From assembly GCA_905178155.1 (NCBI GenBank), contig CAJINV010000010.1, forward strand, positions 2,534,466 through 2,598,465: a stretch of DNA of 64,000 bases, written 5' to 3'. The notes beneath the pieces are model-generated. The model was not told where the DNA came from and did not search any database. It saw only the letters and a list, made by a program, of their open reading frames with translations. Positions within the stretch are counted from its first letter, which is position 1; the number at the start of each line of letters is the position of its first letter. Below are positions 1,447-63,803 of the stretch, piece after piece. This stretch comes from Amoebophrya sp. A120 (lineage: Eukaryota > Protista > Dinoflagellata). A program made the position numbers and the translations under genes.

Positions 1447-3906
1447 GTTTGAGACTGAGGCAGTTTTTTCGTACGATGTCCGCCCCTGTTCGATTTCAAA
1501 GCGTATTCCAACAAGACGGCACATATCAACTGCAAAAGTATCGTACTCGTATAAATGCATTACAAATTTCCGCAGCATGAGAAATAAAATTTGTAATGCG
1601 GATTTGCGTTCAGAAAAAAATTTGTAATGCATGATTGCAATACGAGCACGATAGTACTTTAGCACAGGATACCACACCCAGTCGGGTACAGGTCGTCGTC
1701 GCAAAGCGGGACCACAAGAAATTCGAACAAAACTTCGCCCGAGTTGTATCCTGATTAAAAACTACGTCCCCACGACCCCAGAGTCAAGTTGTCAAATCTG
1801 CTACACAAATCAGCCAGCTTTGGTTGTTTCGCATGACAAGTTTGGGTTCGTAGTGTAGTAGTCCTTTTTAGCTGGTGGAGCCGCATGACAAATTGGCTAC
1901 CTGATCCTGATTCCAGCATGACAAGAAAATACCAGATAGCACCACAGTAGAAAATGGCTGTCATTGGGCTCTGCATGAGAAACATTTTCAGCATGCAGAT
2001 TTGCATTACAACTATGGGGAGGTGGGGACGTTTTTGCATAGGATAAGTTGCAGCAGGGGCAGAATTTGATTCCCGGCGAGCAGCAACGCATGGATCATGC
2101 CGGTGCATTTTTTGGGGACGGCAGCGTGCAGCAAGGGCCAGCATCAGCAAGTGTCGTTCCGCCGCCACCGCCACTACCGAAAAATTTGGGCAGTCCGAAG
2201 AACGCATCTTCAAACCGTCGCCCAGCGCCCATCAGGACGGAGGACTCCGGAACAACAAACGTTGCAGCGACAAGTGGTAACTACAATAATGACTTTTCTT
2301 CACCAAAGAATGTCAAAAATGTGGACGGGCTAGTACATGGTGGAAATCAAATATGCAAGAAAAAAACTGTGTAAAAATGCAGAACATGCGACAGAGTATA
2401 CACCTGTCATGCCAGACAGCCATGAAGTCCGCTTTTCATGTGTGTTTTCCCTTAGAGGCCACGCATGACCACAGGTTTTTTCTGTTATGTAGATCAAATT
2501 TGTGATGCTGGCAGCCAAAGAAAGCTAGACTGACACAGTTTTTTTCTTGGATATCAAAACCAAAAGCACCAGACGACGCCGTCGAGTGGCAATAAAATCC
2601 GCGAAGCCAGTAGCATGCGGGAGTACGCTATCCTGAGTAAAAACGTCCCCACCCCAGAGTTGTCATGCAAAAACACTTGCTCAAAATGTTTCTCATGCGG
2701 GGCCCTATGACAGGTATTTTCTAGTCGTGTTTTGGAATTTGTAATGCTCCAATCAGCATGGTAGGCTAGATTTGTGATGCTTCTGAACGAGGTAAACAGG
2801 ATTACAGTACGAGGCCGAACTTGTTATGCGCAACGCCCTAAGCTTGTAGATTTGTCTAGCAGATTGACTATGGGGTGGGGACGTTTTTCCTCAGAATATA
2901 CGCAGCACCTTTGTCACCGGAGTTTCGGAAACCGAAAACAAGCGGTACAACTTATCCTGAGCAAGAACGTCCCCACCCCAGAGTTGTCATGCAGATTTGC
3001 AATGACAGGAACATTTGTAATGCGCATCTACATCAGAGGCATTTCCAATCGTGTTTTGGCATTTGTAATCCTGTAAACAGGATGAGGAGATGAGTTTGTC
3101 ATGCGACTGTCCTTCCTAACCTGCACTACACTACAAAGACGAACTTGTCATGCATGGCTTCCAAAACTCCTCGATTTGTGTTGCAGAGTTCACAACTTGA
3201 CTATGTGGTGGGGACGTTTTTACTCAGGATACAAGTACGCCCAAATCTACAAGCAACGCCGCTAACATGCTGAATGCGAGGCTCGAGTCCACAACCAGCT
3301 ACAGTCGGCAGGGCAGCAGCAGCGAATTCCGGCAGGTGCGCATGCGCACGCCCAGTCACGGGTATCCAAGAAAAAAACTGCGTAAGTGTAAATTAGTGTT
3401 GCAGAAAATGCAAAACTGTTACACTTGTCATGCTGGACATGCATCAGAGGCAATTTTCGTGCGTGTTTTCACGTACTAGCTACGCATGACAGGAGGTTTT
3501 CTGTGTCATGCAGAGGAAACTTGTGATGCTATTCCTCCAAGAAACTTACACTTACACAGTTTTTTTCCTGGATAACGGGGAAGTGGTGGTTAATAGAAGT
3601 GCTTCTGGTGGAGGAGGTGCAGCGGCCACGACACAGGAGCTGCATCTTCAAACGGAATTTATTTCATCGCAAGGAACTAGTACGACGCCAGCGAATTATA
3701 ATTTTTGGCCCAGCTGGGTCTGGCAGTACGCCGCGAACAGCTTTCAGGACGGACGAACTAGTATGGAATGCAAATATCTGGTCATCAAGAACATCTTCCG
3801 GCGGGTGGTCTGCAACCAGGGAGCCGACATTTGTCATGCTGTTTTTGCATTTGCAGGAAGGGGTGGAATTTATCACGCAGAGAGTATCCGGATCATTCGT
3901 CAATAA
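1447..3906 (+). CDS. Unknown low-complexity (S/G/P/Q-rich) protein, multi-exon; 5' end unresolved (possible ATG at 1172)
   Basis: One continuous frame (..FDFKAYSNKTAHPVGY..PELQQGQNLIP..PPPPPLPK..NFWPSWVWQY..IIRQ*) after removing six introners plus one DR each; no recognisable domain. Confidence 0.55.
1524..1671. mobile_element. Introner family C
   Basis: TIR; DR gcaca/ccaca. Confidence 0.75.
1747..2045. mobile_element. Introner family D
   Basis: TIR; DR agttg/agttg. Confidence 0.85.
2352..2553. mobile_element. Introner family E
   Basis: TIR; DR tcaaa/tcaaa. Confidence 0.85.
2629..2898. mobile_element. Introner family D
   Basis: TIR; DR tacgc/tacgc. Confidence 0.85.
2953..3231. mobile_element. 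Introner family D
   Basis: TIR; DR caact/caagt. Confidence 0.85.
3363..3574. mobile_element. Introner family E
   Basis: TIR; DR acggg/acggg. Confidence 0.85.
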
Positions 3907-4077
3907 GCTTTTTCATCGATCGATCCTTAGACCCCCGTCTGAGATGAAGTAGTGCTCATGGATCTTCGGGACGAGACAAGATGAAACGCACATCCTTTAT
4001 TTCTCACTATACAACAAGACGGATTTTTCATTTTATCATCCACTCCATATCAACTCATTCTCAACAGCATCACAAGT

Positions 4078-7000
4078 TTGCGCAGTGGTCTTTCATCGCA
4101 GAGGACCACCACCCAACCATTTTTGCAAAAATGCATAGGGGCAAGCAACACAACTTCTAAGGGCCCGTCACATTTCAAATATCTCGACGGCGTCCCAGCG
4201 GGAACTACAAGTGCTGGTGCCCAGCAGCAAAGAGGATTTGCGGGTGGAAGTAGGAGACCCTATAAAGATTACATCGACGACGAGCTGTCTTCTAGAGGAT
4301 TCTACTCTCGTTTCCTCCACGAGAAGTGCGGCCTGACGCCGAAACTGCTCCTCGCAGTGCTTGCGGGCTTGGCCCTCGGCGCGGTGCTGGTGATTGTCAC
4401 GTTTTTGCTGTTCGCCGGAGATGGAATATCAAACAAAAAAAGTTCCTCACGATCGTCACTCATGCGCATTTTTGTAATGCAAAACTTTCTGTCATGCTAA
4501 AAAATGCATCACAGCCAAACTTTACAGGGGATTTGCCTAGTGCTTCTGCAATACAAGGAAGAGTTGTTATTCTAAAAAAGTTTGTAATGCAAAACCTGCA
4601 TTAGTTAGTGACTGTGAAAAACTTTTTTCCCTCCATATGGAAAAACGAGCAGTGAGGAGGGCAATCCTTCAAATATCCTGAGTAAAAATGTCCCCACACC
4701 AGAGTTGTCATGCAAATGCGCAATGAGAGGAAAATTTTTAATGCGCGTCTCCATGAGAGGCATCGCATTTCCAATCGTGTTTTTGACTTTGTAATGCTGT
4801 AGGCACGATGGGAAGCTGGGTTTCTCATCCGGCTTCCCTTGCTGACCAGCACTACACTGCAGATGGAAGCTTGTCATGCGCAGCTCTCAAAACTTGGAGG
4901 TTTGTGTTGCAGATTTACCAACTTGACGTATGGGGTGGGGACGTTTTTACACAGGATATCAGAGACCGGGACGAGGAACCCCGGCTCGCAGCAGGAACCT
5001 GCTATGTCCCTGTCCGAAGTGCAACGATCCATAACAAATGCTCTAGTGATATCAAATGCAAAAGTGTCTGGGTCTGGAAGGTTGCAACTTGTAATGCTAC
5101 TTCTGGATCGTGCAAAAATCTGTGTTGCATGAATGCCAAAAGCTGTCCACTTTTGACCCAGTTGAGAGGAAGTTTCTCATGCAGGAAAGGCATGATACGG
5201 ATCTCACAGAATCTGTCATGCTAGGTCCTGCATTCCAGACGACGTGGATCATGGAAAATCTGCATGACAAACCTAGCAATGTTCCAGACCCAGACATTTT
5301 TGCTTTTGATAAGTGAACGGCGTGCCCCATTTCAACGCCGGCGACCCCTGTACTACGGTGACGATCTACCAGAGCGAGCAGGAAACCCTACTCACGAAGC
5401 AAATCCCCACCAACGTGCGAATAAGGTTGACGGAAACTATGCAATGCAGAAGCATCGTACTAGTATAAATTGCATTACAAATTATAGCCCAGCACTACAA
5501 ATTAAATTTGTAATGCTGATTTACCTTATGAAAGAGATGCAATTACTACGAGTACGATACTTTTGCACGGGATAGAAACCAACCTGCAGCAAATGATGCA
5601 GTCGTTTGATACGACAAGGAGTTCGAGTACTGAGTGTATCAATACGCATTGCAAATATGTCTCGTTCCTCTGGAAGATTAAAACTTGTCATGCTAAATCT
5701 GAATGATGCAAATATCTGTGGTGCGTGAGTACCAAAATCCGTCCGCCTTTGACCAAATTGAGAGGGAGTTTCTCATTCAGGAAAGGCATGATAGAGACCG
5801 GAAGAAATCTGTCATGCTGGGTCTCGCATTCCAGACCTAATGGCTCATGCAAAACGTGCATGACAAGTCTCAGAATCTTTCCGACCCGGACATATTTGCA
5901 ATTCATAATCAACGCGGCGTGGCAAATCAGATACGCGTTCGACGATGTGCTGGCGATGCAAGACCTAGCTGCGCAGGTGGAGGACAACAACGCACAATTA
6001 GCCGGAAGTAGTTCGTCATCTGGAGCAGGTACTTCTTCGGCACCCGCTTCCTCAGCCGTGAAAGAAACAAAATCCGTATCGCAAGGAAGAATTCCCCCCT
6101 GGCCCGTATTGACGAGGTAGGTTTTCGAAAATTTGTGTTGCTGATTTGTGACGACCACAAATCGCGTCTGTCTTGCAAGACGCCATTTATTCCACCGGCT
6201 CCGCCGCATTATTCTTGCAGGCGGTTTGTCATGCTGTTGGGCCTGCAGCGCGGACGTTTTTCATGCTAAGCGCCTAGGTCACAGCCTCGCTGCTCAGGCT
6301 TGGTATGGGTCTGCAGTCCGCTCCATCAAGACGAATCTGACTTGTGTACGCAAATCCAGCTACTTCGGAGACTTTGTTTTGATAGATATCTATGGGGAGG
6401 GGGATTTTTCCTTTTGATAATCCGTGGCCGAAATTCAGACGGAAATTACCCGCGAGTTGACGGGTATTTCGGCAGAACCGTATTACAGTGAAAAGTGCCC
6501 CCCACCCCCAAAGTGGCAAAAATTTGTGATGCGAAGTTTCCAAATGAAAATTTTTTGTCATGCATGAAAGGAATATGAATCTTTCTGATGCAGATTCTCG
6601 TGGTGTTTCGCATCGCTCGCATGACAAGCACCGCTCTTGCTGGGATCTTTTGCAATACAAATTTTTGCTATTCACCATCGGAAATCTGTGATGCTGATAC
6701 ACGCAAGAGGGCGAATGTTTCATTTGGAAAGGTTTGCAATGCAAATGCTTTCAAGTTCGGGGGTGGGGGCATTTTTCATTGTGATAAACCGGACGCCAAG
6801 CAAAAAACGCAGCTCGCGTTGAACCTGCACCGGAAATTTCTGAGTAGCTACCAATTGCCCCTTATGCATTGCAAATATGTCTGGGTCTGGGAGAGTGCAA
6901 CTTGTGATGCTCATTTGGATGCTGAAAAAATCTGTATTGCATGAGCAGCAAGAGGAGTCAAATTTGGCTACGCGGAGGGGGCGTTTGTCATGCGGGATGC

Positions 7001-8949
7001 GCGTCGATAAACGGTAAAAAGTCTGTAGTGCTAGGGCATACATCACAGACATCATGGATCATGGAAAATGTGCATGACAAAGTTGTCCTCTACCAGATGC
7101 AGACACATTTGCATTTGATACCCCTCGACATCGAGATTATCGTGAAAAATGCGGAGCTGAAGTTGAACAGCTACTACCGAGTTTTGCCGATCGACTCCCA
7201 GAATTCAGAAACGGCGTTGGTCGATAACTTCGGAACCGAAGTGTTGCAGATGCTTTTGGAGCAGGAGTTTGAAAGAATTCTAGCTTTACCTTCCAGCTCC
7301 GGAGGGAGTGGCGGGGGCGTTTCGGGGACGCAGGTCGTGCCAACAGCTGCAGCAACAACGACAGCGTCAGCCTCCTCTTCGAATGGTGGCAGCGCAGGGA
7401 CCTCAACTTCGCAAGCAGCAGCTGCTGGTCCAGCAACAGCTATCCCATGTAAAAACGTCCCCACCCCATAGTTGTCATGCAAATCTGCATGGTAAAAATG
7501 TTTCTCATGCGGAGCCCTATGAGAAGCGTTTTCTCTTCGTGTTTTGACATTTGTGATGCTTGAATCAGCATGCTAGGCTAGATCTGTGATGCTGCTGGGG
7601 CTATTATAAATAGGATTATACTACGAGGCCAAACTTGTCATGCGCAGCAACCAAAGCTGGTGGATTTGTCTAGCAGAATTCCCATCTTGGCAGCTCTGAT
7701 GTGGGGACGTTTTTACATAGGATAACAGTACCGTCCGCCACGAATCCCGCGTCTGACCGGGGAAAAGTGGTGTTGCCTTACCAACTGCAAATATGTCTGG
7801 GTCTGGAAGAGTGTAAACTTGTCATGCTGTCTTTGGATTCCAAAAAAATCTGTATTGCGTAAGGAGCAAGAGGAGTCCAGTTTATGCTACGCGGCGGGGG
7901 TATTCCTCATGCGGTATAGGCATCAGGACGCCCTCGCAAAATCTGGGATGCTAGGTTATGCATTACAGGCATCATCGGCCATGCAAAATGTGCATGACAA
8001 GTGTTCATCCAACCTTTCAGACCCAGACATTTTTGCATTTGATATGCCTCCCACTCCAACCACGACCACGAGCGCGCCGACTCAGTTCGCCACGAATTAT
8101 CAAAATGAAAAATCCCCCCTCCCCATATCGAAAGGGAAGTCTGTGATGCTGTATTTGCGTACACAAATCAGCTTTGTCGTGCAGTAGAGCACTACAGGCA
8201 GATGCAAAGCCTGGAACGGGGTGGCTTGAGGTAGTCACTTAGCATGGCAGATGTCTGCCCCATTGGCGCGGCAGCATTACAAATCGCCTGCGAAATGCGG
8301 CGGAAGCTCTGGCTTTGCCCTCTTGCAAGACAGACTCGATCTGTGGCCACAAATCAGCATCACAAATTTTGAAACGCGCACCGTTTCGATATGGGGAGGG
8401 GGGATTTTTCCTCACAATACGAATTCCAATCTGTTCACCCCCGTCAGCCTCACCTCCGGCGCGTTGCAAATTGTGACCGACCGCGTGATGGGGGGCATTT
8501 CTACGGCGTCGTATGATACGGGAAGGAAAATCTTCCAGGGCAATGTTCTAGCCGCGAACAACGGCGGTTTTGCATCGGTTCGGATGTACAAAGCAATGAA
8601 TTTTGACAAAGCCGCGGGCTACAAGGGGTTGTACGTGAAAGCGCGGCGGGCGGACGACATTACGAACGACGGCACAAATCGGGAAATCACCCTGGAAATG
8701 ATCGCCGACGTGAGCGGTGTGGGGCAGTACGTGATGGAGTTTAAACCGAATTTTTCGGACACTTCCGCGACTTTCCTCTTTCCCTTTGACGGCTCCTGGG
8801 CGCAGGAGGCTTTCAGCTGGCGGCGGAGTGGGAAGCGGGCGGTCTTGTTTGACCCGACAAAAATCGGGATGCTGGGGTTTATGGCGATCAAGCCGAAGAT
8901 TCTCGGGGAGTTCGCCGTGTACATAGAGGAGCTGGGTGGTTATTTCTGA
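4078..8949 (+). CDS. Single-pass membrane protein with C-terminal CIA30 (NDUFAF1-like) domain; 11 introners; start codon unresolved
   Basis: Hydrophobic segment LLLAVLAGLALGAVLVIVTFLLF; frame kept across 11 excisions; last exon IVTDRVMGGISTAS..FQGNVLAANNGGFASVR..YKGLYVKAR..F.VYIEEL matches CIA30 motifs (D-x-VMGG-x-S, NNGGFASVR). Confidence 0.75.
4427..4637. mobile_element. Introner family H
   Basis: DR tggaa/tggaa; homologous to 46646-46838. Confidence 0.85.
4674..4958. mobile_element. Introner family D
   Basis: TIR; DR tcaaa/tcaga. Confidence 0.85.
5050..5311. mobile_element. Introner family A
   Basis: TIR; DR agtga/agtga. Confidence 0.9.
5438..5574. mobile_element. Introner family C
   Basis: TIR; DR gaaac/gaaac. 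Confidence 0.85.
5643..5907. mobile_element. Introner family A
   Basis: TIR; DR atcaa/atcaa. Confidence 0.85.
6077..6419. mobile_element. Introner family B
   Basis: TIR; DR atccg/atccg. Confidence 0.85.
6481..6786. mobile_element. Introner family J
   Basis: TIR; DR aaccg/aaccg; reverse-oriented homologue at 39226-39531. Confidence 0.9.
6863..7120. mobile_element. Introner family A
   Basis: TIR; DR cccct/cccct. Confidence 0.9.
7441..7724. mobile_element. Introner family D
   Basis: TIR; DR acagc/acagt. Confidence 0.85.
7779..8044. mobile_element. Introner family A
   Basis: TIR; DR tgcct/tgcct. Confidence 0.9.
8098..8419. mobile_element. Introner family B
   Basis: TIR; DR cgaat/cgaat. Confidence 0.9.
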
Positions 8950-10027
8950 TGCCAAATTTTTATTTTTATGAGAAGCATAATGCCCGATCTCAGCCTCAGG
9001 TTCCTCGTTTTTGTAAACAGGAGTGACAGGAGCGACAGAACAGGAGTAAGTTGCAGACATAGAAGAAGAAGATGTGCAGCAGGAGTGTGGGTTTGCAATC
9101 TTCTCGACGAGGAGAAGCATGATAGATAAGGCGGCCGGACTATACAGTGTCGGTGTCGCCGAAGCAAGAGAACAAAAAGTCTACACAAGTACTCACCGCA
9201 CATCAGCCACAGCGCGATCATGAAGCTGATTTTATTTCTGTTGTTCATCCCACCTCTCGTTTGACTGACCTGCGAAAGATAAGAAACGCAGCGAGCTCCT
9301 TCGAAGCGGGGGCACCGAAGCGGCACCAGCTGCCAGTATTCGGTACATATACCTCCCTGTTCGACACAAGCTAGGTGCAAGAACTTGTTCTGTTGCACTC
9401 AGACGAAAAAGAGCACATCATGCACAGTCCCCGTACGTCGAAGAACTTGATAAAAACGAAGGTTGTGAGTGAAAATAAGTCACTGATTATAAAAGCAGAA
9501 AAGTACAGCTGAAGAATTCGACATTTCATGAACGCAGCTGAAGTACGTAAAACTGAACGACAGCATTTGCATGTTTTTTTCGTATTAATTGTTGTTGTCG
9601 GGTGCTCACAGTAGTTGTAGTGCAACCACCTCCGCTGGAAGGGTAAGTAAGTACCTGCTCCGATAGTTTCATACGTCAGTCCGATTTTTAAAGATATAAG
9701 CCCATTTCATGCTCTCACAGGCATTTCTGCACGGCCCCACGTTCGTTCGCTACTTTCCCTTCGTCCCCTTGATATTTACCCCCGTGTCGGAGGAAAGTGC
9801 CACCACCTTCGCAAGCTTGACCTGTACTTGTTTAGTAGGCAGATAGGTTTTCATTTACCAGAATCGTCTTCATCAACATCTCCTCCTCGCTTTCAATGCT
9901 ACCCAAGACTCAGCAGCAAATAGACTTTTTTTTTGTGCCAAGCGGTTCGTTGAGGTTGAGAACGACGACGGTGATGTAGAAGAAGAAGAAGAAGAAGTCA
10001 CTTCCATAGCTTTATTAGATCCCAAAA

Positions 10028-12202
10028 ATGTTCGCCGCCACCTACCAGCAGTTGGAGCAACAGAACAAGAACGCCGGCGGAATAAATAATACTAGCCTAA
10101 ATCTGCACGGCATCGTAAGGAAAAATCCCCCCTCCCCACACAGAAAAGGCATACTTTCGGAAATTTGTGATGCTTGCTTGTGCTCACAAATCGTGTCTGT
10201 CTTGCAAGAAGGCAAACCCAGAAGCCCCCTCCCGCATTATGCCTGCGGTTTGTGATGCTGAAGGCGTACCGCATGGACTTTTTTCATGCCGAGCGCCTTG
10301 GCCAAAACCTCTCCCACTCAGGCTTGCTATGGGCCTGCAGTCCTCTCCAGCAAGACAGATTTGATTTGACTACTCAAGTCCAGCGTCACAAGTGTCCATT
10401 TGGATATGGGGAGGGGGGATTTTTCCTTTTGATACACGGCGTGAACAAGTCCGAGCGGTTACTGTTGCCCAATGTCGTGGAAGAAGGTCTCCGGTCCAAC
10501 GGGTTCACCTCTGCTTTCTCCGCTCCGGTGCACGAGGATGCGCACGACGAGTACAAAAGGGCGCCTGCGCACCACAACACGGTCATCCACGGGACGGAGA
10601 GGGCGCGGCATGTGGTTGACGACCCTGTGAACAAGATGCAGAAGAACACGTGCAGCGTGCGGCCAGCCGAAGCGGGCCACGGGGTCGTGCAACAGCTTGG
10701 GCCCCCCACTTCGCACCAGAAACAGTGCAGCAACACCGTCGAAGCCGACAGCTACACCATCCATTTAGATCCTTTAGGAGTGACCAACGACGGGCCTTCT
10801 ACTTCGAGGGATAATAATACCAGCTCGAATTATTTTTACAGCAGCCGGTGGAATTATTCATACGGCAGCGGCGGGACCACGGGTAGCACGTCCATCGCCT
10901 CGCTGCTGCAGCAAGCTTTTGACACGGTCCAACTTCTGTTACCAACGTACGCCACGCAGGAAAACCTTAAATGGGTCGCGAGGATAGTGTTCTTGGTCGT
11001 CTTGATTCTCTACTTGCTCCCCATGACGTTTGGCTTGGTCGGATTACTCTTCTCCGGCTTTTCGCTCTCGGCGGTGCAGTATGCATTGCAAAAATGTCTG
11101 GGTCTGGAAGAATGCAACTTGTAATGCTAGCCTTACATTCCTGGGAAATCTGTATTGCATAACCGACAAAAGCCGCAGCCATTTTTGTCATGCAAAAACG
11201 TAGTTTCTCATGCGGATTGCCTATGAGATAGCGCTCCGGAAAGTTGTCGTGCTGGGCTGCATTCGGAAGTGTTTCCATCATGCACATTTTAGCATCACAA
11301 GTTTCCAGACCCAGACATTTTTGCATTTCATATGCGGAATCCGTACACGGAGGAGTACAACAAAAAAATCGTCGCCACCGAGCAACAGGCGATGGACCCC
11401 AACGAGATTGCGGGGCCAGAGCAAGTATGAATTGCAAAAGTATCGTACTCGTATAAATGCATGACAAATTCCCTCAGCATGAGAAATCGAATTTGTAATG
11501 CGGATTTGCCTTGAGAAAAAAATTTGTAATGCTAACGCATGATTGCAATTCAATGGAATTACAATTACTACGAGTGCGATACTTTTGCACGGAATAGCAA
11601 GACAAATCTGCGACATCAATTTCCGAAAACAACAACAACCCAGAAGGACTCTCCGACCGCACAACTTCCCCGGTGAATGACACGACGCTGTGGTATTGGG
11701 ACAGTCGGCTGCTGTTCCTCTACGTAATTCCCATTTCCTTTGGCGTCTACGCGTATTTCCGCAACAAAGACAACCAGAACGGGGACGTGGTTACGGCTTG
11801 CAAATTAATATGTCTGGGTCAGGAAGATAATCGCAAGTTTGTCATGCTCGGCTAGCATGATGACATTCATGCGCATAATTTTTTACACAAAAGCAGCTCG
11901 AATTTCAATTTCGTGTCATTCTAGAAGGCAGTTTCTTGTCATGCAGAATAAGTATTACACAATACCTAGCAACTGAGATGAAGCTTGTCATGCTGAGCTG
12001 GCGCTTGTGGTGTGCTCATGGTTCGCCACGCAGCATCACAAGCTTCCAGACTCCGACATTTTTGCAAAGCATAACAATGCAGCAACAATTGCTCGGCGAT
12101 GACGGGAGGAGACGGAACAGTCACACGAGCGCCGGGGCGGCAGGAGGGAGCAACGGCTTCGGAGATGCGGATGAACACGCGGAGTATGAGCCGCTTCCGT
12201 AA
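10028..12202 (+). CDS. Unknown membrane protein with several hydrophobic segments; 4 introners
   Basis: ATG 10028; frame restored across four inserts; TM-like WVARIVFLVVLILYLLPMTFGLVGLLF and LLFLYVIPISFGVYAYF; stop at 12200-12202. Confidence 0.6.
10111..10434. mobile_element. Introner family B
   Basis: TIR; DR cacgg/cacgg. Confidence 0.85.
11080..11332. mobile_element. Introner family A
   Basis: TIR; DR tgcag/tgcgg. Confidence 0.85.
11426..11596. mobile_element. Introner family C
   Basis: TIR; DR gcaag/gcaag. Confidence 0.9.
11792..12073. mobile_element. Degenerate introner family A
   Basis: Eroded TIR, DR not recognisable; removing the element plus 5 nt still restores frame. Confidence 0.6.
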
Positions 12203-13435
12203 ATTCTTGGTCGCGTGCGTCCTCCAGTGGTTCATGTACATACAACTTTACGAGGAACCTATTGTGCAGTTGTTCGAGAAGATGAATGATTCTTCATTTG
12301 GCGCAACAAGCAAGACAAAAGAACTTGCAGATTTTTGTCTAGGAAGGCGCAGTAGCAGTTATGAGGTTGAGGCAAGGTATTATATATTGAAGCACCTACC
12401 TCGTCGAGGACCTGCTTCCTACACAAAAATTTCGACGCAAAAGTAGTATAAAAACCACTAGTATAATTCTTCAAGAATCCATCACCGCACGGAGTCAGTC
12501 TCTCTTTCTACTTGAAGCTGTGATAAAGCAAAGTCTTTTCATCTCGTTGGACTGGAGTCGAACTGGATGTGGGCAGCAGGGTCAACAGCACTTTGTTCAC
12601 TAGAATGTGAAAAGGAAAAAAGACTACAGTTGTGTCTTGTCAGCAAAGGACTTTCTTGTGTTCAACGATTGAACAAAAATCAAGTGTGTTCTTCAACAAG
12701 GGAGCCGAAGATCACCACTTAGCTGTTCAGGACCAGCACAGGAGCCTTCATTTCTTTTTGAGCGGCCGATATAGAAGTAGATCACAGAAGATGACACACG
12801 ACCCTTTGGACCAGTAGAGGATCCCCTCTCTTTAGCGCAGAGAGGTGATCCTCTTTTTCTCTCAAGCTTAATCTCTTTGACCAGTTGGTCTTTTTCTCTT
12901 GGCTTAGAAAGTCCAAGAGAAAAAGAACCTGGTCAAAGACTCTAACTCTAACGTGGTAACCGGGGGCACATACTGCTTTAGAGACCTTTTTTTTTTTTTT
13001 TAAAGCCAAGAGGTAACCGGGACCTTTTTTTTTTTTTGTCTAACCGCTAACCGGGGGCACATACTGCCAAAACGCTGGCTCCGGTGCCCGGAACTCATCA
13101 TCGCACCCACACGCGCACACAGGCGGCGACGCTTGCGCACTACAGCCTCTAAAAAGGCACCAAACAGCCACACTGGGCGCCAAAGTACTAAAGACATCAC
13201 TCAACCCGATAGGCAGACCCACACTGGGGCTCATAACAGGAGCCAGACAGCACACATAGGCATGGGGCACCTCCTGAAAGGGATCTGCAGATGGCGTGGG
13301 CGATCAAGTCCACGAAAAAGAAAGCACCCGAAGGTGCTAACCTTTCCTGTGCAATAGATCACAGATGTGCAAGTAGATCACCCTTTGGACCAGTAGAGGA
13401 TCCCCTCTCGACGTACTCACCTCTGGTGCGGGCCC

Positions 13436-13676
13436 TATCAAATGCAAAAGTGTCTGGGTCTGGAAGGTTGGAACTTGTGATGCGCATTTCAAAACACAGA
13501 AAAATCTCTCATGCATAGGTAGCTAAAGCTGCCCACTTTCTGTCAGCAAAATAGGGGACTTGTCATGCGGATTCGGCATTGCGGAAGCTTGTCGAAATCT
13601 GTGATGCTAGAGCTTCCATGCCAGACCTTCTGTGTCATGCAAAAACAGCATGACTCAGACATTTTTGCATTTGAGA
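13436..13676. mobile_element. Introner family A
   Basis: TIR; DR ggccc/ggccc. Confidence 0.8.
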
Positions 13677-13759
13677 GGCCCTTGCCCACGCCGATGTTTG
13701 AAAACATGAGAATCCCGCCCGAGGACGAGCACGTGCAATACTGTACAACCGACCCGGAG

Positions 13760-13969: not shown

Positions 13970-13974
13970 CGGAG

Positions 13975-32917: not shown

Positions 32918-32939
32918 TTGATTTTCGGTGCGCTGGTGG

Positions 32940-50896: not shown

Positions 50897-52136
50897 GCAG
50901 CGGCACAGAAATATAAACATGTTGGCTATTGTTTGACCACAAATGTCAAAGCCGCGCAGAGGTGATGAAGATTACTAGAGTTGTCCACCTGGTCCTGGTA
51001 GGTTGTCAGCTCGACGTCCAGGAGGGAAACGGTAGAAATACGTAAGTAGGACCGTGCTGTCGTGAATTTTCAAAGATGTTGATGTAGTTACTTTTTTGTG
51101 TAGAAGCAGGAGCACGGTCGTGAAGATGGTCGCACGAAGCACATTTCCACAGGCCGCTCCTATTATTGCTGCGTCGGTCTAATATCAAACTGCTGTATGC
51201 AAGAAAATAGCACCAGCTGGGGTGCAGCTGACCACTCAGTGTCGTGTGAAATACTTCTAAAATATGCAGATTTATTTTCCACTTGTAACTTTTTTTGTTG
51301 ATCGTTCCGCTTGATTTTATCGAAGCGGCTTTGATGAATTCTTCTCTACGATCTTTTTCCACGAGGGCATGCGCAGGTGCCTGCAGGGTGCTGACGAAAG
51401 AACATCAAGAAAGAGACCCTGCTTCTGAAGAAGATGCAACCGAGGACACCAGAGCACGTTAATTTCTTTACTCCTGGATCATGCCCCGGTTTTGATGAAT
51501 TCTCATTTAAAACTCCGATTGAAATTAAGATTTCTTTGCTAATTGCTCTGCGGCATCAGCTCTGGTATGTGTTGTAAAGCCTTTCTGGTTGGACGCTTCG
51601 GTGATGTGACTACAAGAGAAATAGGATCCACTTCATTGTGTGTTTTTCTGAGAAATGTTGAGATCTTCCTGACAGCTCTCTCTAGTGAACTTGCAAATCA
51701 GTGCGCTCAGTTCGCGTAAGCGCAGCAAGGATCTTAGTGTAGATCCACGAAAGCAACAAAAGGAAGGAGGACCATGAAGAAGAAGTGATCAAGGGAATTG
51801 TGTAGAAAATGATCCAGAGACGTTCAAAACTTGCACAGGCACTACTTGAAGACCAATCCAGCGACAAAAACTGTGCACAGTTTTCTCGAAATTAGAGCCC
51901 CCGCTTGTTCTTCTGTAAAACACTTCTATTTTCATCTTCATCATTATACTCCAGCGACCGCCTTATCGTTTTTGTACTGGTAATGTTATTCCTATTCTCA
52001 TTGAATGAATCACAGAGCACGATAGAAGTAAAACGAACTGACCAAGCACGTCGGAATAGTATTTGTTTTCTTCTCTAAAAATCTGCTTCATAGAAATCTC
52101 CTCCTCGACGACGTGTGCTTCAAAAGCAAGTAGAAA

Positions 52137-55100: not shown

Positions 55101-58100
55101 TGGCCAAGGGGCGAAAGCCCTAGGCCAGCGCGGGGACTCGGTCCCCGCGTCATGGACTAGGGGCCAGCTGTCGGCGCTTCCCGGACACCGTGCGGCCAAG
55201 GGGCGAAAGCCCTAAGCCAGCGCCGGGACTCGGTCTCCGCGTCGTGGCCTAGGGGCCAGCTGAGCGCGCTTCCCGGACAACGTGTAGCCAAGGGGCGAAA
55301 GCCCTAGGCCAGCGCGGGGGCTCGGTGGGGCCCCGCGTCATGGACTAGGGGCCAGCTGTGCGCGCTTCCCGGACACCGCGCGCGCGGCCAAGGGCGGGGC
55401 AAAGCGAACCCTTAGGGCAGCGCGGGGACTCGGCCCCCGCGCCATGGCCTAGGGGCTGGCTCGCAGCACTTCCCGCGACGCCGTGCGGCAAAAGGGCGAA
55501 AACCCTGCCTAGGCCAGCGCACGCGGGGACCCTCTCTGCCCCCGCGCCATTGCCTAGGGGCCAGCTGTAAGCGCTTCCCGGACGCCGTGCTGCCAAGGGG
55601 CGAAAGCCCTAGGCCAGCGCGGGGACTCGGTCCCCGCGCCATGGCCTAGGGGCCAGCTGCAGGCGCTCCCCGGCGACACCGTGCGGCCAAGTTAGGGGCG
55701 AAAGCCCCAGGCCAGCGCGGGGACTGCTCGCTCGGTCCCCGTGTCATGGCCTAGGGGCCAGCTTTGGGCGCTTCGTTCCCGGACAACGAACGTGCGGCCA
55801 AGGGGGCTAGCTACGAACACTCCCCGGACACCACACCGCGCGGCCGAGGATGGAAGGGGCAGAGAAAAGCCCCAGGGCAGTGCGGGGACTCTGTCGCCGC
55901 GTCATGACCTGGGGGCCGGCTCCCGGCCCGGCACGCGCCAGTTAGTTTCTTTTTTTCTTTTATCTTTGCGCGCGGCAGGCTAATGAATCTAGTGCGCGCA
56001 AGCAAGGGGGCCGCGTCCGCAGGCCCGTCGCGGGTCAGTGAATGCAAGGCGCACCGAGATACCTAGCTGCAGGCGACCTGCCTGGCCAGTGCCACCGCGC
56101 AGACAAATGTAATGCCGGAAGGTCGCCGCACGGGGACTCTGTCCCCGTGCTCGGACCTTGTTTGTCATGCATGTTTTGCATGACCCAGGATGTCCGTAAT
56201 GCACGACCTAGCATCACAGATTTTTAGAGAACTCCCTGATGCCCACTCCGCATGACAAACGCTCTCCCCGCGTAGCACAAACTAGACGCCTCTTGCTGGT
56301 CATGCAATGCAGATTTTTTTAGAGTCCAAAGTTAGCATCACAAGTTCACATCTTTCCAGACCCAGACATTTTTGCATTTGATCTCGGAGCAGTCACAGTG
56401 GCTGGTGGAAAACTTCAAGCAGGTGCAATTTCTATCGTAAGGAAATATCCCCCCTCCCCATATCAAAAACGAAGCCACAGAAATAAATTTGCAATGCTAA
56501 ATTGTGACCACAAATCGTCTCTGTCATGCAAGAAGGCAACTGCACAGGCTCCGCCGCATTATCGAGGCAGTCGGTGATGCTGTTGTGCCTAAAGCGTGGA
56601 CAACGTTTGTAATGCAAGGCGCCGACATAGGCGCCTATGAATGTCGGCGCCTTGCTTCCCAGGGTTGTCATGTGCCTGCAGTCCACTACCGCAAGACAAG
56701 TCTGATTTGTTTACGCAAGTCCAGCATCACAAATTTCCTGGCCGATATGGGGTGGGGGGATTTTTCCTTTCGATAATTTCTGATCCTGGACGAGGCCGAC
56801 CGGTTGGTAGAGCAGGGCCATTTTCGCGATTTGACCAAGATCTTGGACTTTTTGTACAAGGAAAAAAAGGTGGACTTCATTTTGAACCACAGCGACGCAG
56901 CAGGGAAAAATGATGCGAAGAGACAGAAGAAAGAAGATGACACTATTAACCCGAACGACATCGAGCTCGGGGCCCGACGAAAGGCGGAGAAACTCCCGAG
57001 GCTGCAGACGTTGGTCTTTTCCGCCACATATGCATTGCAAAAGTATCGTACTAGTACAAATGGCATGACAAATTTGCCCAGCATGAGAAACGGAATTTGT
57101 CATGCTGATTTGCCTTGGGGCGGAGATTTGTAATGCATGACTGCAATTACTACGAGTGCGATACTTTTGCACAGGATACCACCTTGGCGGATGTGGAGCC
57201 GCTGATGGAAAAGGTCCGGTTCTGCGCCGGCGCGTCGAATGCGTCGAAAATGAACAAACCCGTTGTGATCGACCTGTCGCAGCAGAAGACGAGATTGCTG
57301 GCTGCCGCAAGTGCTGCAACAATAACTAAGAGCGGCAGCGTTTTTCCGGAAAAACTGCGGTTCGAAAGACTCAGTTTTACCAAAGATGAGGACCGGGATT
57401 GCTTGCTGTGTTACTACGTGCTGCAGCAGATCGCCATGCTGCAGCAAAATAGTAGGTCAGGAGCTCCTGCTGATGTTCGTGGAGCAGCACCGAGAACATC
57501 AGCATCGAATAGCGAAGACGCAACAACTATAGATTGCAAAAATGTCTGGGTCTGGAAGAGTGCATGTTTGTCATGCTTGTCTGGCATGACTCTTAAATCT
57601 GTCATGTACGTTACCCAAGAAAAGCCCCATTTTTCTGTCATGCAAAAACGCACTCTGTCATGCAGAATAGGCAACACCTACAAGCTCAGAAACGTGTCAT
57701 GCTGAGCCAGCACTTGTGTACCTTGCTCATGATACGCCAACCAGCATCACAAGTTTCCAGACCCAGACACTTTTACATTTGATAACAACACCAGCTTCTG
57801 TCACGACCCCGAAAATGATCGTGTTCACGAACGCGATTTCCATGGTATCAAATGTAAAAATGTCTGGGTCTGGAAGATTGCCAGGTTTGTCATGCACATT
57901 TTGCATGACTTCTGATGTCTGTGATGCATGCCCTAGCATCACAGATTTTGTGAGGGCTTCCTGATGCCTATACCGCATGACAAATGCTCTTTCCGTGTAG
58001 CAAAACTTGGACTCTCTTTGCTGCTCATGCAATACAGATTTTTTTAGAATCCAAGATCAGCATGACAAGCTGGATTCTTCCAGACCCAGACACTTTTACA

Positions 58101-59993
58101 TTTGATACATGGTTTACCGGCTCTATTCCCTTTTTGGCCTTCTCCTCGGGAGCGACGCGGGGAAGTCGAAACTCGCGGCGATTGTGCCGCAGAAGGGTAG
58201 TACTAGGCGAAACAATGGTCTTCATGGTGGGAAAAAGAATTTTTATGCGGGAAATTCAAAAAGGTCCGCGAACGAGTACCCATTAAATTGCGACGTTTTC
58301 GCCTTGCACAGCAACATGTCCCAGAAGGAAAGGCTCAACAAAATGGACAAGTTCCGAAACAGCGGGGTTGTACTAGATCTTCATGGGGTGTCCTCGTCCA
58401 GAACTTGTGAAGTAGAAGATGGAAAAGAGCAGCAACAAATGCAAAGTCCACCGAAGGACGCGGCCATTCTGATTTGCACCGACTTGGCGGCCCGCGGGCT
58501 GGACGTCCCAGATGTGAACTACGTGGTGCATTATCAGGTAGATAATTAAACAACTGACTGTTTATGTGATTTTGATATTGATTCTGTGATGCAAAAGTCT
58601 CTATTACAAGAAAAAAGTTGGCCTTCTATGCAATCTATCATGATGACAAAGCTTTGAGTAAACAGAAGAACCGTTTCTCAAACATTCGCAGTAAGTGACC
58701 GACAGAGCTGAAGCAATCGTGCCGGTGGGGGTGTGTAGTTGTCATTCTGATGTAATTTGTCGTGTACTATTTTTACGTGCGTGACAGTAACTTGTCGGAG
58801 TGGTTTGCACCACAGCTCCGCCATTGCGCGTTCATTGTGCAGCGCATGCGGGACATTGCTTTACTTTCCTTAGATGTCTGACGACAGGTTTTTTGCACCA
58901 GCAGCTGGTGCATATTTCTTGACTATTATTCGCACGACAAATCTAGTCGCTCCTTATCCAAATGCGACGTGACAAACACAACTAAAGTGATGAATGCAAA
59001 AAGTGCCGCGCCATCCATTTTCGTCGAGTCGCCATTAGCTTGGCCTCGCTGACAACAACTCAAAGGCATCCTGATTTGTGGCAGAATTATACTAGTTTAT
59101 TCGGATATAGAAGACGCGCGGAACAACTTGCCGTACAACGTCGTTGAAAAGGCCGTTATTTTCATTTGCATTTCCGACTCGCCTAGCGCTCAACGTGCCT
59201 GCTTGCCTATTCGGCGCGAAATTAAAACGACCATGACCGAATAATTTTCTTCCTCCAACAAAACAACAGGCTCCGCGTTCCTCCGAGATTTTCATTCATC
59301 GCACGGGCCGGACCGCCCGCGCCGGCAAAGCCGGTACGGCGTTGATCATGCGTGCACCTGGCGACGTGCAGAAATACGACGAGTTAGTAGCGCAGAAGAA
59401 CCTTTTTGGCGAGAAGGGAGACGAACTAATCTTGGAACTGGCGGTTCCGCAGGCCAAGAAGCTCCAGTCGCTGCGGCAACTGTTGGAAAATTGTTCGAAC
59501 TTGGAGAAGCAATTGCACGAGGTGTCCAAAAAGCACAAAGAAAAGGAGTGGTTCAAGCGGCACAGCTATCAACTGTAAAAAAGTCTGGGTCTGGAAACAT
59601 GTAAACTTCTGATGCGCATTTGAGACCAGAAAAAAATCTGTCATGCATGGACCGCAAAAGTTGCTCATTTCTTGTCACCAAAAGAGGGAACTTGTCATGC
59701 GGATTAGGCATCGCCTAACCTGCTCAAAACCTGTGTTGCTAGGACTTGCATGCGAGACCTTCTGTGACATGCACAAGCAGCATCACACTCTTCCAGACCC
59801 AGACATATTTGCATTTGATAACAGCAAGGAGTGCGAGCTGGACTTTTCCGACCTTTCGGACTCGGAGGACGGAGATTTTGGCGGCGGTCACGACGGAGAT
59901 TTTGGGGGTGTGAAGAAGGAAAACAAGGAAAAACTAGCGCAATTGTACAACCAGGTGAAACAAAAATTGCAAAGCGTTTTGAAGTTGGGATGA
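52137..59993 (+). CDS. DDX24: DEAD-box RNA helicase, DDX24/MAK5-like; 6 introners and one GT-AG intron
   Basis: Q motif (FYRPSAIQ), AETGSGKTLAFGLP, PTRELA, GTPGR, LDEADRLVEQGHF, QTLVFSAT, TDLAARGLDVP, HRTGRTARAG; the GHF after DEAD and the K-rich N-terminus favour DDX24/MAK5. Confidence 0.85.
54110..54392. repeat. Short 11-12 bp tandem repeats (cataccccaga / acacaccccgg) in inverted arrangement
   Basis: ggggtatgttcg repeats at 54110-54151 are the reverse complement of cgaacatacccc repeats at ~54218-54310. Confidence 0.75.
54435..55925. repeat. GC-rich 92-bp tandem satellite, about 16 copies, decaying rightwards
   Basis: ggccaagggg recurs at 54442, 54534, 54626, 54718; unit contains ccctaggcca-gcgcggggac-tcg-gtccccgcg-tca-tggcctaggg. 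Confidence 0.9.
56433..56775. mobile_element. Introner family B
   Basis: TIR; DR atttc/atttc; removal gives VQFLILDEAD. Confidence 0.9.
57029..57178. mobile_element. Introner family C
   Basis: TIR; DR ccaca/ccacc; removal gives FSATL. Confidence 0.9.
57528..57784. mobile_element. Introner family A
   Basis: TIR; DR acaac/acaac. Confidence 0.9.
57846..58107. mobile_element. Introner family A
   Basis: TIR; DR catgg/catgg. Confidence 0.9.
58538..59269 (+). other. Canonical GT-AG intron (DDX24-like gene)
   Basis: gtagat..aacag; joining gives VVHYQ-APRSSEIFIHRTGRTARAG. Confidence 0.85.
59567..59820. mobile_element. Introner family A
   Basis: TIR; DR acagc/acagc. Confidence 0.9.
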
Positions 59994-61108: not shown

Positions 61109-62747
61109 GAGTTTGACTTTGCAATACCAGCAGGTATAGGCTTTTTGTTGTTCACTTAAGCTGCTACCGAGCTAAGAAAAGTTTCGCACCGGGTACTGTT
61201 TCGCAGTTATTTAAGTATTTTCTAGCGTTGCCGAGTCCGATACCGATTCCATATCCAAAGCTTTTTATTGATTTCATTGATCACCTTGTATTCGAATCTA
61301 CCTGATGGAGGTATTCATTTTCGCTTAATCTCTCATCCCTTCCCTCGAACAAACTCAGTCAAAAACTTACCTGCTTTGGGAACGAACCCGCTCGACGCAC
61401 CTGATGGTATGATTTTCTTCACTGCTACGTCGACCTCCATCTATGCCTATCGCCCTCAGCATTTGCGCGTCGTTTCGCGCTAACGCAGTTGCCCGCCTCA
61501 CATCCGTACTAATATTTGTAACCTCCTCCACAACATTTTTGAATGTGTACATGCCCCCAGAGTCTCCGCTGTAATGACATGCCCCCGTAGCTCCCTCGCC
61601 TCTGCTACGCGAATACAATTCCAAAGATGGGCATAAGGAATCCAGATCGATAATTACACTCCACCTTCTTATAGTCATCCTCCCTCCCGATGGAACAAGA
61701 GAAAACCGTTAGCAACCCCCAGCGCTGCCCATCCCACACCCTGTCGAACAGGACTGCTATTGAAACGTTTTCGTGCCTCCACTGAAATCTTTCCTCAACT
61801 CGCCTTTCATACCACGACGCAAAGTATATTTCTTTGTTGACAATGGTCGCGTTTTGGCACTTATATTTTTGTTCGTTTTCGTGTTCGAGAGAGAAAGACG
61901 AAGTGAGGGACCGTGATAAGATTACTATCGGCGAGTAGTTGTCTATAATAGCAAGCACACAGTGAATGTGAATGATCATACTTTTTTTTTGAAGGCAACG
62001 AGATCATCCGCGTCACAAAGCAAAACGATCTGACTTCTGAAGAGGATATGAAGAAAGACCAAGATCAGCGCACTGCGAAGATGAACTTCCTAGCACTATT
62101 ACCTCTTGCGGAGGCAAGATCATCGGTTGTTTTTTTGTCACGGACGTGTATTTAACACGAGCTTCACAATCGACCTTATCCCAATCTCGATCAGCGCTGC
62201 ATGATTCTCGTGCAAAACCCTCGCAATTCAAAGATACGAAAGCTCCGCACTTTGCCAAACTTTTTCCGAAGATCGTCTTGTAGAATTTTATTTCGAGGCT
62301 TTAATACAATAGTACATAGGTTTCGTACAACAGCATATGATGCCTCTTCAACGGTTCCAGTTGAACCGCTCTCGGGCTCTAGAACAGTGGAGGACTTACA
62401 CAAAAGTGTTTTGTGCATGTAAATGATTTGAGGAAGTCGAAGTTTCCGGCACAGATAAAGAAAAATAATCGTACTAGACTCCTTGACCTTGTTCTTTCTC
62501 ATCTGGTTGACGAAGGACGAAGGCGGCAAAAAAAAAAATGAACCGAACCGGCATGGGACCTAAAGCTTTGGCCGCCCGCTCATGATGTGTTAGAATCTCA
62601 ACTGTTACGATGAAATGCAGCGCGGGACCACTACCGTTTTGGAGACAGGAGCATTTGTAGAGCATTTTCCACACCGCTCTGAATAAAATTGACGAAGCTC
62701 GCCGTTCTCTAGTACTACGGCGTGAAGCACACCGGCACCGTAGCGCC

Positions 62748-63803
62748 ATGACCTCTCCCAAAAATTCTACCCGGAAGTCTACCACGACGAAATGGGTCCA
62801 GGAAATCAACTGGTCCATGCTGGCCACGTGGGTCACGCTTTTCACCACGGTGCTTTTCAACCTGCAGTTTCAGTTCATCTACCGCAATATGCAGCAGGGG
62901 CCACTTTTCAACACCTTACTGACGGAGTACTCCGACCCGGTGATACTCGACGCGCTCGACCTTCTGGAAGATTTCCAAAAGGCGTCGGCCGGGGCGGTCG
63001 CCAAGGGTGCCGGGGTGGGGCTCGGGGGATCGGGACTCAGTGAGAAAGGGGCGAACAGTATCCAAGGAAAAAGCTGTATTTAGTGTAGCTGTCTTGTTCA
63101 GGTGACAGCATGACAAATTCGTTCTGCATGACCACAGAGAAATCCTGTCATGCACAGCTTGTATGTGAAAACATAAACATCTTTGAAAAAAAAAAAAACA
63201 GGACAGTGTGGGTGGCATGAGAAGTGTAACTGCTTATACATTTTCTGCATCACAGACTTACACTTACAGAGTTTTCTTCTTGCATAAACAGCTTCGGGAC
63301 GGAAAACTGGCAATACGCCTACGACTTATGCGCAGAAAAAAGTGTTTTTACAGTTACGCATTGTATTGCGGGCCAAGCATGACAGAATTTTTCTGTCATG
63401 CACAAAATGCTTGCGCGCCTCGTTTCTTCTGTGTTTTCCCTTATTATCTCTCTTGTGCATTCCACGGCATTCAGAGAAAGTCTGTGTTGCTGAACTTACA
63501 ACAAATGCGTCACTGTAACTGTATACACTTTTTTCTGGCCGCGATAAGATTTCCTGGAATTGCAGTACATAAACCACTACGCATTGGTGCAAATAGGTCT
63601 GGGTCTGGGAAGTAATGGAGATCTTGTCAGGCGTGCCTTGCATGTTTTTTGCTGAAGAACCACTACCGCTAGTACCGCATCAAAAGGTTTCCAGACCCAG
63701 ATCGGTATTTGCACTGCATAATCACCCCCGAGGACGGGAGATCGACCACGCAAGACGAAGGTTGATCTCCTGGTACAGCAAGGTACAGAAGTTGAAGTTG
63801 TAA
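62748..63803 (+). CDS. Unknown protein with N-terminal TM helix, 3 introners; 3' end uncertain (may splice onward)
   Basis: WSMLATWVTLFTTVLFNL hydrophobic segment; frame continues ..ANSFGTENWQYAYDFLELQYINHPRGREIDHARRRLISWYSK after excisions. Confidence 0.55.
63059..63286. mobile_element. Introner family E
   Basis: TIR; DR aacag/aacag. Confidence 0.85.
63327..63546. mobile_element. Introner family G-like
   Basis: TIR; DR cgact/agatt (eroded). Confidence 0.75.
63578..63720. mobile_element. Short (143 bp) degenerate family A introner
   Basis: gtctgggtctgg..ccagacccag; DR accac/atcac. Confidence 0.75.

What the first reader, a model, noticed from the sequence alone, without database searches (positions are those of the whole stretch)
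1524..63720. Genes interrupted by ~80 TIR-bounded, non-GT-AG mobile introns from at least 11 families, all obeying one excision rule
Seen: inserts typically read [5-nt DR]-TAT..TIR..TIR..ATA-[5-nt DR] with no GT/AG or AT/AC ends. Removing the insert plus one DR restores the frame, including inside catalytic motifs of conserved genes (ATG4 GKPR|KAHYFVG and LD|PH; helicase QF|LILDEAD and SAT|L; 11 of 11 junctions in the CIA30 gene). Known: IR/DR-bounded introner elements with non-canonical ends have been reported in Amoebophrya spp., and to my knowledge their removal mechanism is unresolved. Inference: the genes are functional, so a precise pathway independent of ordinary splice sites must remove these MITEs. 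It could be an RNA-level hairpin-recognising machinery or ciliate-IES-like DNA excision, and it runs alongside a normal spliceosome because GT-AG introns occur in the same genes.
Basis: partly seen in the sequence, partly recalled or inferred. Interest (0 to 1): 0.92.

Follow-up and report, generated by a model that had tools for sequence, protein, structure and literature searches.

The report
Amoebophrya transposon introns, fixed cut register
In the plankton parasite Amoebophrya A120, 83 small mirror-ended transposons interrupt the genes of this stretch, and those checked are missing from transcript contigs although nearly all lack normal splice signals; the class is already published, but the cut likely falls at one fixed place (one base before the element, four after it), a testable clue to how they are removed.

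Summary
Observation confirmed. I count 83 TIR elements (70 TAT..ATA; 5-nt repeat perfect in 60) in 14 clusters. An exon matches an Amoebophrya sp. A120 protein at 100%, and the elements fit the introners published for that strain (PMC7789003), so the class is known. All 10 joints read in transcript contigs remove element plus 5 nt, one of them 2,360 nt long; a GT-AG intron is spliced in the same contigs. Twelve copies with unequal flanks allow only one register: intron = N-TAT...ATA-NNNN. The paper calls the border unknown, although its Table S4 motifs fit this register. This scan found the same rule earlier on other pieces of this genome. Best guess: the hairpin positions a spliceosome that keeps only the +2 U (0.5); rival: endonuclease plus ligase (0.33). 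A branch-A clue did not replicate in a second assembly.

The parts
1524..63720 (+). 83 TIR-bounded introner elements; predicted intron = 1 nt before TAT to 4 nt after ATA
   Evidence: full coordinate list
5050..59820 (.). Cluster 1, 33 copies of about 250-290 nt (24 forward, 9 reverse): 5050 5643 6863 7779 11080 11792 13436 16476 17130 20164 22186 23625 23981 25150 26617 26977 28657 32072 33768 37405 38641 42653 43432 43883 45593 46938 47608 48956 50124 54029 57528 57846 59567
6077..56775 (.). Cluster 2, 13 copies of about 310-343 nt (8 forward, 5 reverse): 6077 8098 10111 16747 20480 22568 26217 31693 33369 37015 44862 46249 56433
1524..57178 (.). Cluster 3, 9 copies of 137-187 nt (7 forward, 2 reverse): 1524 5438 11426 20887 24287 27418 36805 49759 57029
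1747..63720 (.). Clusters 4-14: (1747 2629 2953 4674 7441 24642 32940); (2352 3363 21437 63059); (13760 13975 48310 63327); (18418 21133 45241); (4427 46646); (6481 39226); (21759 32378); singletons 18200, 18636, 44318, 63578
3985..8946 (+). Host gene with C-terminal CIA30 domain, 11 elements
   Evidence: Pfam PF08547 E 4.6e-12; spliced protein 42% identical to P0002 over 636 columns; length of transcript contig fits loss of all 11 if it starts at 4142
10019..12199 (+). Host gene (no Pfam match in the exon tested), 4 elements
   Evidence: X3 contig 11: 1815 nt observed, 1815 predicted
15344..28989 (+). Nup133/Nup155-like host gene region, 24 elements and at least 4 GT-AG introns (18958-19202, 19542-19713, 23258-23525, 25724-25943)
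   Evidence: PF08801 E 1.2e-6; deposited A120 protein P0001 matches 20 of 24 junctions, the other 4 lie upstream of its start
42371..50893 (+). ATG4 (peptidase C54) host gene, 15 elements, 1552-codon ORF after removal
   Evidence: PF03416 E 2.4e-15; 4 of 4 joints in the laid part seen in transcript contigs
52134..59990 (+). DEAD-box helicase host gene, 6 elements and a 732-nt GT-AG intron (58538-59269)
   Evidence: PF00270 E 3.8e-19; 5 element joints and the GT-AG joint in each of 3 runs; element 59567 lay outside the laid stretch
49759..49922 (+). Copy with 1/5 flanks (GGAAG/CAAGC); fixes the register at exactly 4 nt kept from the left; reads GT..AG
   Evidence: joint 49757>49927, no ambiguity, in 2 of 3 runs
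48310..48542 (+). Copy with 1/5 flanks (ACCTG/GTACG); register 4 or 5; reads GT..AC
   Evidence: joint 48308>48547 in 2 of 3 runs
11792..12073 (+). Copy with 1/5 flanks (GTGGT/ACAAT); register 4 or 5
   Evidence: contig resumes at 12078 and its length fits
57029..57178 (+). Copy with mismatch at repeat position 5; excludes register 5
   Evidence: joint 57023>57179, 4 ambiguous letters, 3 of 3 runs
27418..27604 (+). Reverse-oriented cluster-3 copy; register 3 or 4, so the asymmetry follows the transcript
   Evidence: P0001 match; orientation
10111..10434 (+). Only copy without T at predicted +2; it reads GC
54029..56383 (+). Cluster-1 copy holding a 2,092-nt insertion with a 92-nt satellite; removed as one 2,360-nt piece
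   Evidence: joint 54019>56380 in 3 of 3 runs
31629..37930 (+). Two paralogous short genes giving three filled/empty site pairs (36805, 32072, 37405) and one shared insertion (31693/37015)

Best explanation
These are non-autonomous TIR transposons that duplicated 5 nt of target on insertion and are missing from the transcripts, likely removed from pre-mRNA by a spliceosome positioned by the predicted TIR hairpin, which likely cuts 1 nt before the stem and 4 nt after it. Shown: insertion with a 5-nt duplication (empty paralogous sites); loss of element+5 nt in transcript contigs; no need for the repeat; both orientations present. Inferred from 12 unequal-flank copies: the single register N|TAT...ATA-NNNN, which leaves T at +2 as the only constant splice signal. 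Inferred, not shown: removal at RNA level (about 0.9), the hairpin as the guide (about 0.8), and the U2/U5/U6 core as the catalyst with the hairpin standing in for U1 and 3' AG recognition (about 0.5).
For: Element+5 nt removed in 10 of 10 joints with both ends read; contig lengths fit 14 more (1283/1283, assuming a start at 4142, and 1815/1815). One register fits 5 of 5 transcript junctions, 6 of 6 deposited-protein junctions and the ATG4 LDPH motif; chance 0.021 for the five and 0.0004 for all twelve if each cut were random. Predicted end pairing above 0.5 in 76 of 82 folded copies. +2 is T in 82 of 83 here, the exception reading GC, and in 130 of 130 oriented copies from a second assembly. 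All 9 commonest A120 non-canonical motifs in Table S4 of PMC7789003 are NT-NN and all 9 for A25, whose TIR starts TTA, are TT-NN: different offsets from the stem, same +2 U. The paper found 83 of 89 spliceosomal proteins but no U1. GT-AG and element joints lie in the same contigs.
Against: T at +2 is also what TIR conservation gives: the mirror base at the 3' end varies in 4 of 213 copies against 1 of 213 at +2, too few to separate. All 16 dinucleotides occur at the predicted 3' end. The apparent branch A at -7 (83 of 83 against 8 TAC starts, p=0.007) did not replicate: 3 of 130 lack it in the second assembly, pooled p=0.087. G at +1 (33 of 83, p=0.016) and 3' AG (11 of 83, p=0.025) are weakly enriched here, but G at +1 is not in the second set (43 of 130, p=0.19) and AG is not its commonest end (14 of 130; GG 16). 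Table S4 borders may reflect aligner preferences, and I tested no A25 sequence. No lariat was examined. The runs are contigs whose RNA label is a guess; seven of the twelve register calls rest on a gene model or a motif.
Confidence: 0.5

Rival explanations
1. A protein endonuclease measures from the end of the TIR stem (1 nt and 4 nt) and an RNA ligase joins the exons, as proposed for euglenid and diplonemid non-conventional introns; no spliceosome is involved.
For: Both orientations occur (24:9, 8:5, 7:2 here; 32:28, 3:9, 10:8 in the second assembly); junction letters are nearly free; no replicated branch signal; a 2,360-nt copy with intact ends is removed exactly. PMC12621601 (passages) proposes RNase III-like or tRNA-splicing-like routes and cites circular excised introns in Euglena.
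Against: The stagger would leave a 3-nt 3' overhang, not the 2 nt typical of RNase III (recalled). A25 motifs start TT and A120 motifs NT, which suggests a kept +2 U and not a kept distance. The very end of the stem is predicted paired (probability above 0.5) in only 55 of 82 copies.
Confidence: 0.33
2. The elements are excised from DNA in the transcribed nucleus, like ciliate IESs.
For: TIR plus target duplication is a DNA-transposon anatomy. The joined form in DNA could not be excluded: the joint table of the genomic-looking run was filled by repeat noise.
Against: X1 contigs carry elements with unique flanks and no differences at the depth of unique DNA (3550-4699, 11563-12826). Copies without a repeat are joined at the same offsets, so no microhomology is used. 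A reversed cluster-3 copy keeps the 4+1 polarity of the transcript (one discriminating pair). A two-fold symmetric transposase cut would not be expected to give that (inference).
Confidence: 0.05
3. The elements self-splice as ribozymes.
For: Strong predicted folding.
Against: 14 clusters share only about 15 terminal letters; one copy tolerates a 2-kb insertion. No Rfam search was run.
Confidence: 0.04
4. The junctions are reverse-transcriptase skips across hairpins at the direct repeats, or the loci are pseudogenes.
For: Hairpin plus short repeat is the usual setting for template switching (recalled); the laid RNA runs belong to one study.
Against: Three copies lack the repeat yet are skipped at the same offsets; long frames and catalytic motifs appear only after removal; the spliced CIA30 protein aligns with an independent homologue; two thirds of removed lengths are not multiples of 3 (53 of 83).
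Confidence: 0.03

Closest known systems
Introner elements among the non-canonical introns of Amoebophrya sp. A120 (Farhat et al. 2021, PMC7789003; abstract, Results parts 2-3 of 3, passages of Discussion and Methods, supplement passages and Table S4 rows)
   Same: Same strain by a 100% protein match; IR starting TAT + 7 nt + AAA, 3-5-nt DR, about 240 nt, many families, mixed with GT-AG introns, RNA-supported, mechanism open.
   Different: The paper's Fig. 3 legend calls the splice position variable and unknown, and it doubts general transposase mobilisation. Here: one register, no need for the DR, both orientations, empty sites showing a 5-nt target duplication. I could not see its figures.
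Euglenid and diplonemid non-conventional introns (PMC11282704 and PMC12621601, passages)
   Same: Non-GT-AG ends, end-pairing hairpin at a fixed offset, short repeats at the borders, coexistence with U2 introns.
   Different: Euglenid stem at +4..+6 with -8..-6; here it starts at +2 and ends at -5. Circular excised introns are reported for Euglena and untested here.
Fritillaria borealis MITE-derived non-canonical introns (PMC11282704 and PMC13326754, passages)
   Same: TIR/TSD transposon origin; non-GT-AG introns ascribed to a modified U2 spliceosome.
   Different: U1 is kept and ends are mostly AG-AC/AG-AT there; here U1 was not found by the paper and all 16 3' dinucleotides occur.
A120 introner family 38 with integrase-like ORFs between TIRs (Gozashti et al. 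2025, PMC12130899, passages)
   Same: Same strain; a candidate autonomous source for TIR introners.
   Different: No such ORF was found in this window or in 141 related loci; its termini were not compared with these.

Membership tests
Amoebophrya A120 introner elements | IR beginning TAT, seven variable nt, then three or more A | tested here: met
   matrix; position counts (A at 11-13 in 76-83 of 83 at each end)
Amoebophrya A120 introner elements | 3-5-nt direct repeat at the borders | tested here: met
   5 nt; 78 of 83 match at 4/5 or better
Amoebophrya A120 introner elements | Non-GT-AG ends, removed from transcripts | tested here: met
   80 of 83 not GT-AG at the inferred register; joints
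Amoebophrya A120 introner elements | Repeated in families; host is A120 | tested here: met
MITE (non-autonomous TIR DNA transposon) | TIRs, no coding capacity, target duplication made on insertion | tested here: met
   three filled/empty pairs in paralogues
MITE (non-autonomous TIR DNA transposon) | Autonomous partner with the same TIRs | tested here: inconclusive
   none in the window or 141 loci; one 415-codon ORF nested in a copy (L075) had no Pfam or atlas hit; no whole genome was held
U2-type spliceosomal intron | GT/GC-AG ends | tested here: not met
   3 of 83 GT-AG at the inferred register
U2-type spliceosomal intron | Branch-point adenosine motif near the 3' end | tested here: inconclusive
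   A at -7 in 83 of 83 here, 127 of 130 in the second assembly
U2-type spliceosomal intron | Lariat intermediate; snRNP dependence | not testable with these tools
   only contigs were available for this strain
Euglenid-type non-conventional intron | End-pairing hairpin at a fixed offset | tested here: met
   the offsets differ from the euglenid ones
Euglenid-type non-conventional intron | Release as a circle | not testable with these tools
   needs intron-enriched RNA reads
Ciliate IES | Absent from the transcribed DNA | tested here: inconclusive
   present in genomic-looking contigs; joined form neither seen nor excluded; one run, life stage unknown

The most novel reading that the evidence does not exclude
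Amoebophrya runs a general mRNA-splicing route in which an RNA hairpin alone sets both cuts, 1 nt and 4 nt from the stem, whatever the junction letters, orientation or length up to 2.4 kb, and the catalyst is an endonuclease-ligase pair and not the spliceosome. Any TAT...ATA transposon would then be a perfect intron on arrival, and the hairpin a portable splicing signal.
Probability: 0.33. Interest if true: 0.85.

Novelty: already known. Interest (0 to 1): 0.42.

Why it matters
The elements and the open question date from 2021. What this window adds is a boundary rule that makes the question testable: it names the exact intron ends to look for in lariat, circle and end-chemistry assays, it removes the direct repeat from the mechanism, and it argues against DNA excision and reverse-transcriptase artefacts. 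If the spliceosome does it, it splices with only a +2 U and a hairpin. If an endonuclease-ligase does it, that is a second route for nuclear mRNA splicing used at genome scale (the paper counts 29,850 repeated introns in A120). I did not find the rule stated in the papers returned by four searches; Roy et al. 2023 (Curr Biol) appeared only in reference lists and was not read. Other agents of this scan reached the same rule on other pieces of this genome.

Tried and rejected
Whole-genome analysis: no genome held. Raw RNA reads X9 and X10 (2 of the 3 listed were laid): 215 and 4 reads, all only partly fitting, on element ends; no use for junctions. No listed holder is on record as RNA; X3, X4 and X6 are treated as transcript contigs because their word share (0.34) fits the exonic share (0.33) and they skip the GT-AG intron. 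Joined form in DNA: table swamped by repeats, no verdict. Branch A at -7, G at +1 and 3' AG: suggestive in the window, not replicated in 130 oriented copies (of 377 detected; 247 left out for lack of a confident strand) from contigs JACKZZ01. Cryptic GT-AG splicing: rejected, every joint removes element+5 nt. The joint 54068>56161 probably comes from other copies without the nested insertion (26 letters on the short side), so it is not taken as a splicing intermediate. Autonomous element: long TIR pairs scanned in the window and 141 loci; 7 hits, none with a transposase domain among the 2 ORFs scanned; five intergenic ORFs of the window had no transposase hit. The A120 model of the CIA30 gene was not retrieved, so junctions 1524, 2953, 4674 and 7441 were not resolved. 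Figures S19-S25 of PMC7789003 are images that I could not see and may bear on whether the register was already drawn.
Full report
Observation. A scan for TIR pairs flanked by direct repeats gives TA..TA-ended elements only for 5-nt repeats (53 of 72 hits; none for 3, 4 or 6-9 nt), with 0-3 hits in shuffles. After a symmetric end-matrix scan and manual curation (3 automatic calls dropped, one of them split in two, 12 added) there are 83 elements between 1524 and 63720. Ends are TAT..ATA in 70, TAC..ATA in 8; the repeat is perfect in 60, 4/5 in 18, 3/5 in 2 and 1/5 in 3. They form 14 clusters at 40% coverage and 17 at 60%; full-length pairs are at most 92% identical. Removing element+5 nt opens long plus-strand frames: 59 of 83 junctions fall in ORFs of 300 aa or more, against 15 and 4 in the other frames. 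Pfam identifies CIA30, peptidase C54, DEAD and Nucleoporin_N exons.

Identity. An exon matches a protein labelled Amoebophrya sp. A120 at 100%. Farhat et al. 2021 (PMC7789003) describe for A120 non-canonical introns with IRs that start TAT + 7 nt + AAA and 3-5-nt DRs, count 29,850 repeated introns in 1,954 families, found no U1 snRNA, and state in the Fig. 3 legend that the border position is variable and unknown. The class is therefore known for this strain.

Origin. Two paralogous short genes (31629 and 36786) share one insertion and differ at others; at three sites one paralogue has the element between two 5-nt copies and the other has a single copy. The repeat is a target-site duplication.

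Removal. Run X1 looks genomic (even depth of about 21-34 on unique pieces, intergenic cover) and holds elements with their flanks unchanged. X3, X4 and X6 look like transcript contigs: their word share of 0.34 fits the exonic share of 0.33. Ten joints with both ends read each remove element+5 nt: 10105>10435 and 9 of 9 elements in 47900-59400, including a 2,360-nt copy with a nested satellite. The GT-AG intron 58538-59269 is spliced in the same contigs. Contig lengths fit removal of 3 more elements in the 10019 gene (1815 of 1815) and all 11 in the CIA30 gene (1283 of 1283, if that contig starts at 4142, the 30-letter overlap with its neighbour). The deposited protein P0001 matches 20 of 24 junctions in its region. 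These RNA runs come from one study and their RNA label is a guess.

Register. With a perfect repeat the cut can slide over six positions (k = letters kept from the left copy). Unequal flanks resolve it. Transcript contigs: 11080 k=4-5, 11792 k=4-5, 48310 k=4-5, 49759 k=4, 57029 k=0-4. Deposited protein: 18636, 21133, 21437 k=2-5, 26217 k=3-5, 25150 k=0-4, 27418 k=3-4 (how the model's borders were placed I did not read). ATG4 LDPH needs k=3-5 at 45241 (the motif is recalled). Only k=4 fits all; random cutting would leave a common k in 2.1% of trials for the five transcript junctions and 0.04% for all twelve. The other 11 of the 23 unequal copies were uninformative or untested. The intron is thus likely N-TAT...ATA-NNNN. 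Three of these copies have only 1/5 matching flanks, so the repeat is not read. All nine commonest A120 motifs in the paper's Table S4 are NT-NN, as this register predicts, although aligner preferences could contribute.

Polarity. Copies lie in both orientations relative to the plus-strand genes (24:9, 8:5, 7:2, 2:5). Cluster-3 copy 27418 is reversed relative to 49759 and 57029 yet has k=3-4, not 1. The asymmetry follows the transcript, as expected for RNA processing and not for a symmetric DNA cut. This rests on one pair and a gene model.

Second assembly. A pattern search returned loci from contigs JACKZZ01. They hold 377 distinct elements, 130 of which could be oriented (the same rule called 44 of 70 window elements, all correctly); 117 of 130 match window clusters at a median 82% identity, in both orientations. 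T at +2 holds in 130 of 130. An invariant A at -7, which looked like a branch point in the window (83 of 83 against 8 TAC starts), fails in 3 of 130 (pooled p=0.087). G at +1 is weakly enriched in the window only. I do not claim a branch signal.

Mechanism. The TIRs are predicted to pair in 76 of 82 folded copies. Two catalysts fit. A spliceosome placed by the hairpin would explain why +2 U is the one constant, why the single exception reads GC, why A25 (TIR starting TTA) shows TT-NN motifs while A120 shows NT-NN, and how splicing goes on without a detected U1; Fritillaria is a precedent for a U2 spliceosome handling MITE-derived ends (PMC11282704, passages). An endonuclease with a ligase would explain the free junction letters, the orientation independence and the lack of a branch motif; euglenid and diplonemid introns are the precedent. 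I put 0.5 on the first and 0.33 on the second. The +2 U argument is weak alone because transposition also conserves that base.

Novelty. The elements are published. I did not find the fixed register stated in the papers from four searches, but I could not see the paper's figures or Roy et al. 2023. Earlier agents of this scan noted the same 1/4 rule on other pieces of this genome; I had written it down before that look-up, and their notes are not counted as support. Verdict: known class, useful refinement, interest 0.42.

Noticed in passing
window 54069-56160: 2,092-nt insertion inside element 54029, with about 14 copies of a GC-rich 92-nt unit and shorter repeats; no match in the 141 loci; no transcript-contig depth over 54428-55963.
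   Followed up: partly
window 13760-14188: Two cluster-6 copies in opposite orientation in tandem at one target, with three copies of the CGGAG repeat.
   Followed up: no
window 13400-14480: Gene fragment with three elements and a truncated cluster-2 copy at 14229, bordered by a short repeat also seen near 12800; looks like a disrupted gene piece.
   Followed up: no
window 31629-32914 and 36786-37930: Paralogous short proteins with a hydrophobic N-terminus and a Cys-rich C-terminus; a similar start appears near 60765.
   Followed up: partly
L075 476-2934: Cluster-1 ends with a perfect repeat enclose about 2.2 kb with a 415-codon minus-strand ORF; no Pfam or atlas hit; probably another element nested in a MITE.
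   Followed up: partly
window 5669-5732 and 16726: Raw RNA run X9, which has no reads on the exons here, has about 200 reads joining an element end to other sequence: an element kept in an abundant RNA or in DNA of a related organism.
   Followed up: no
window 29120-29200 and 30050-30130: An 80-nt direct repeat brackets a 0.9-kb GC-rich stretch; the one ORF scanned there has no Pfam hit.
   Followed up: partly
window 38641-38894 and 39226-39531: Two intact elements outside any long plus-strand frame; may lie in UTR or non-coding RNA.
   Followed up: no
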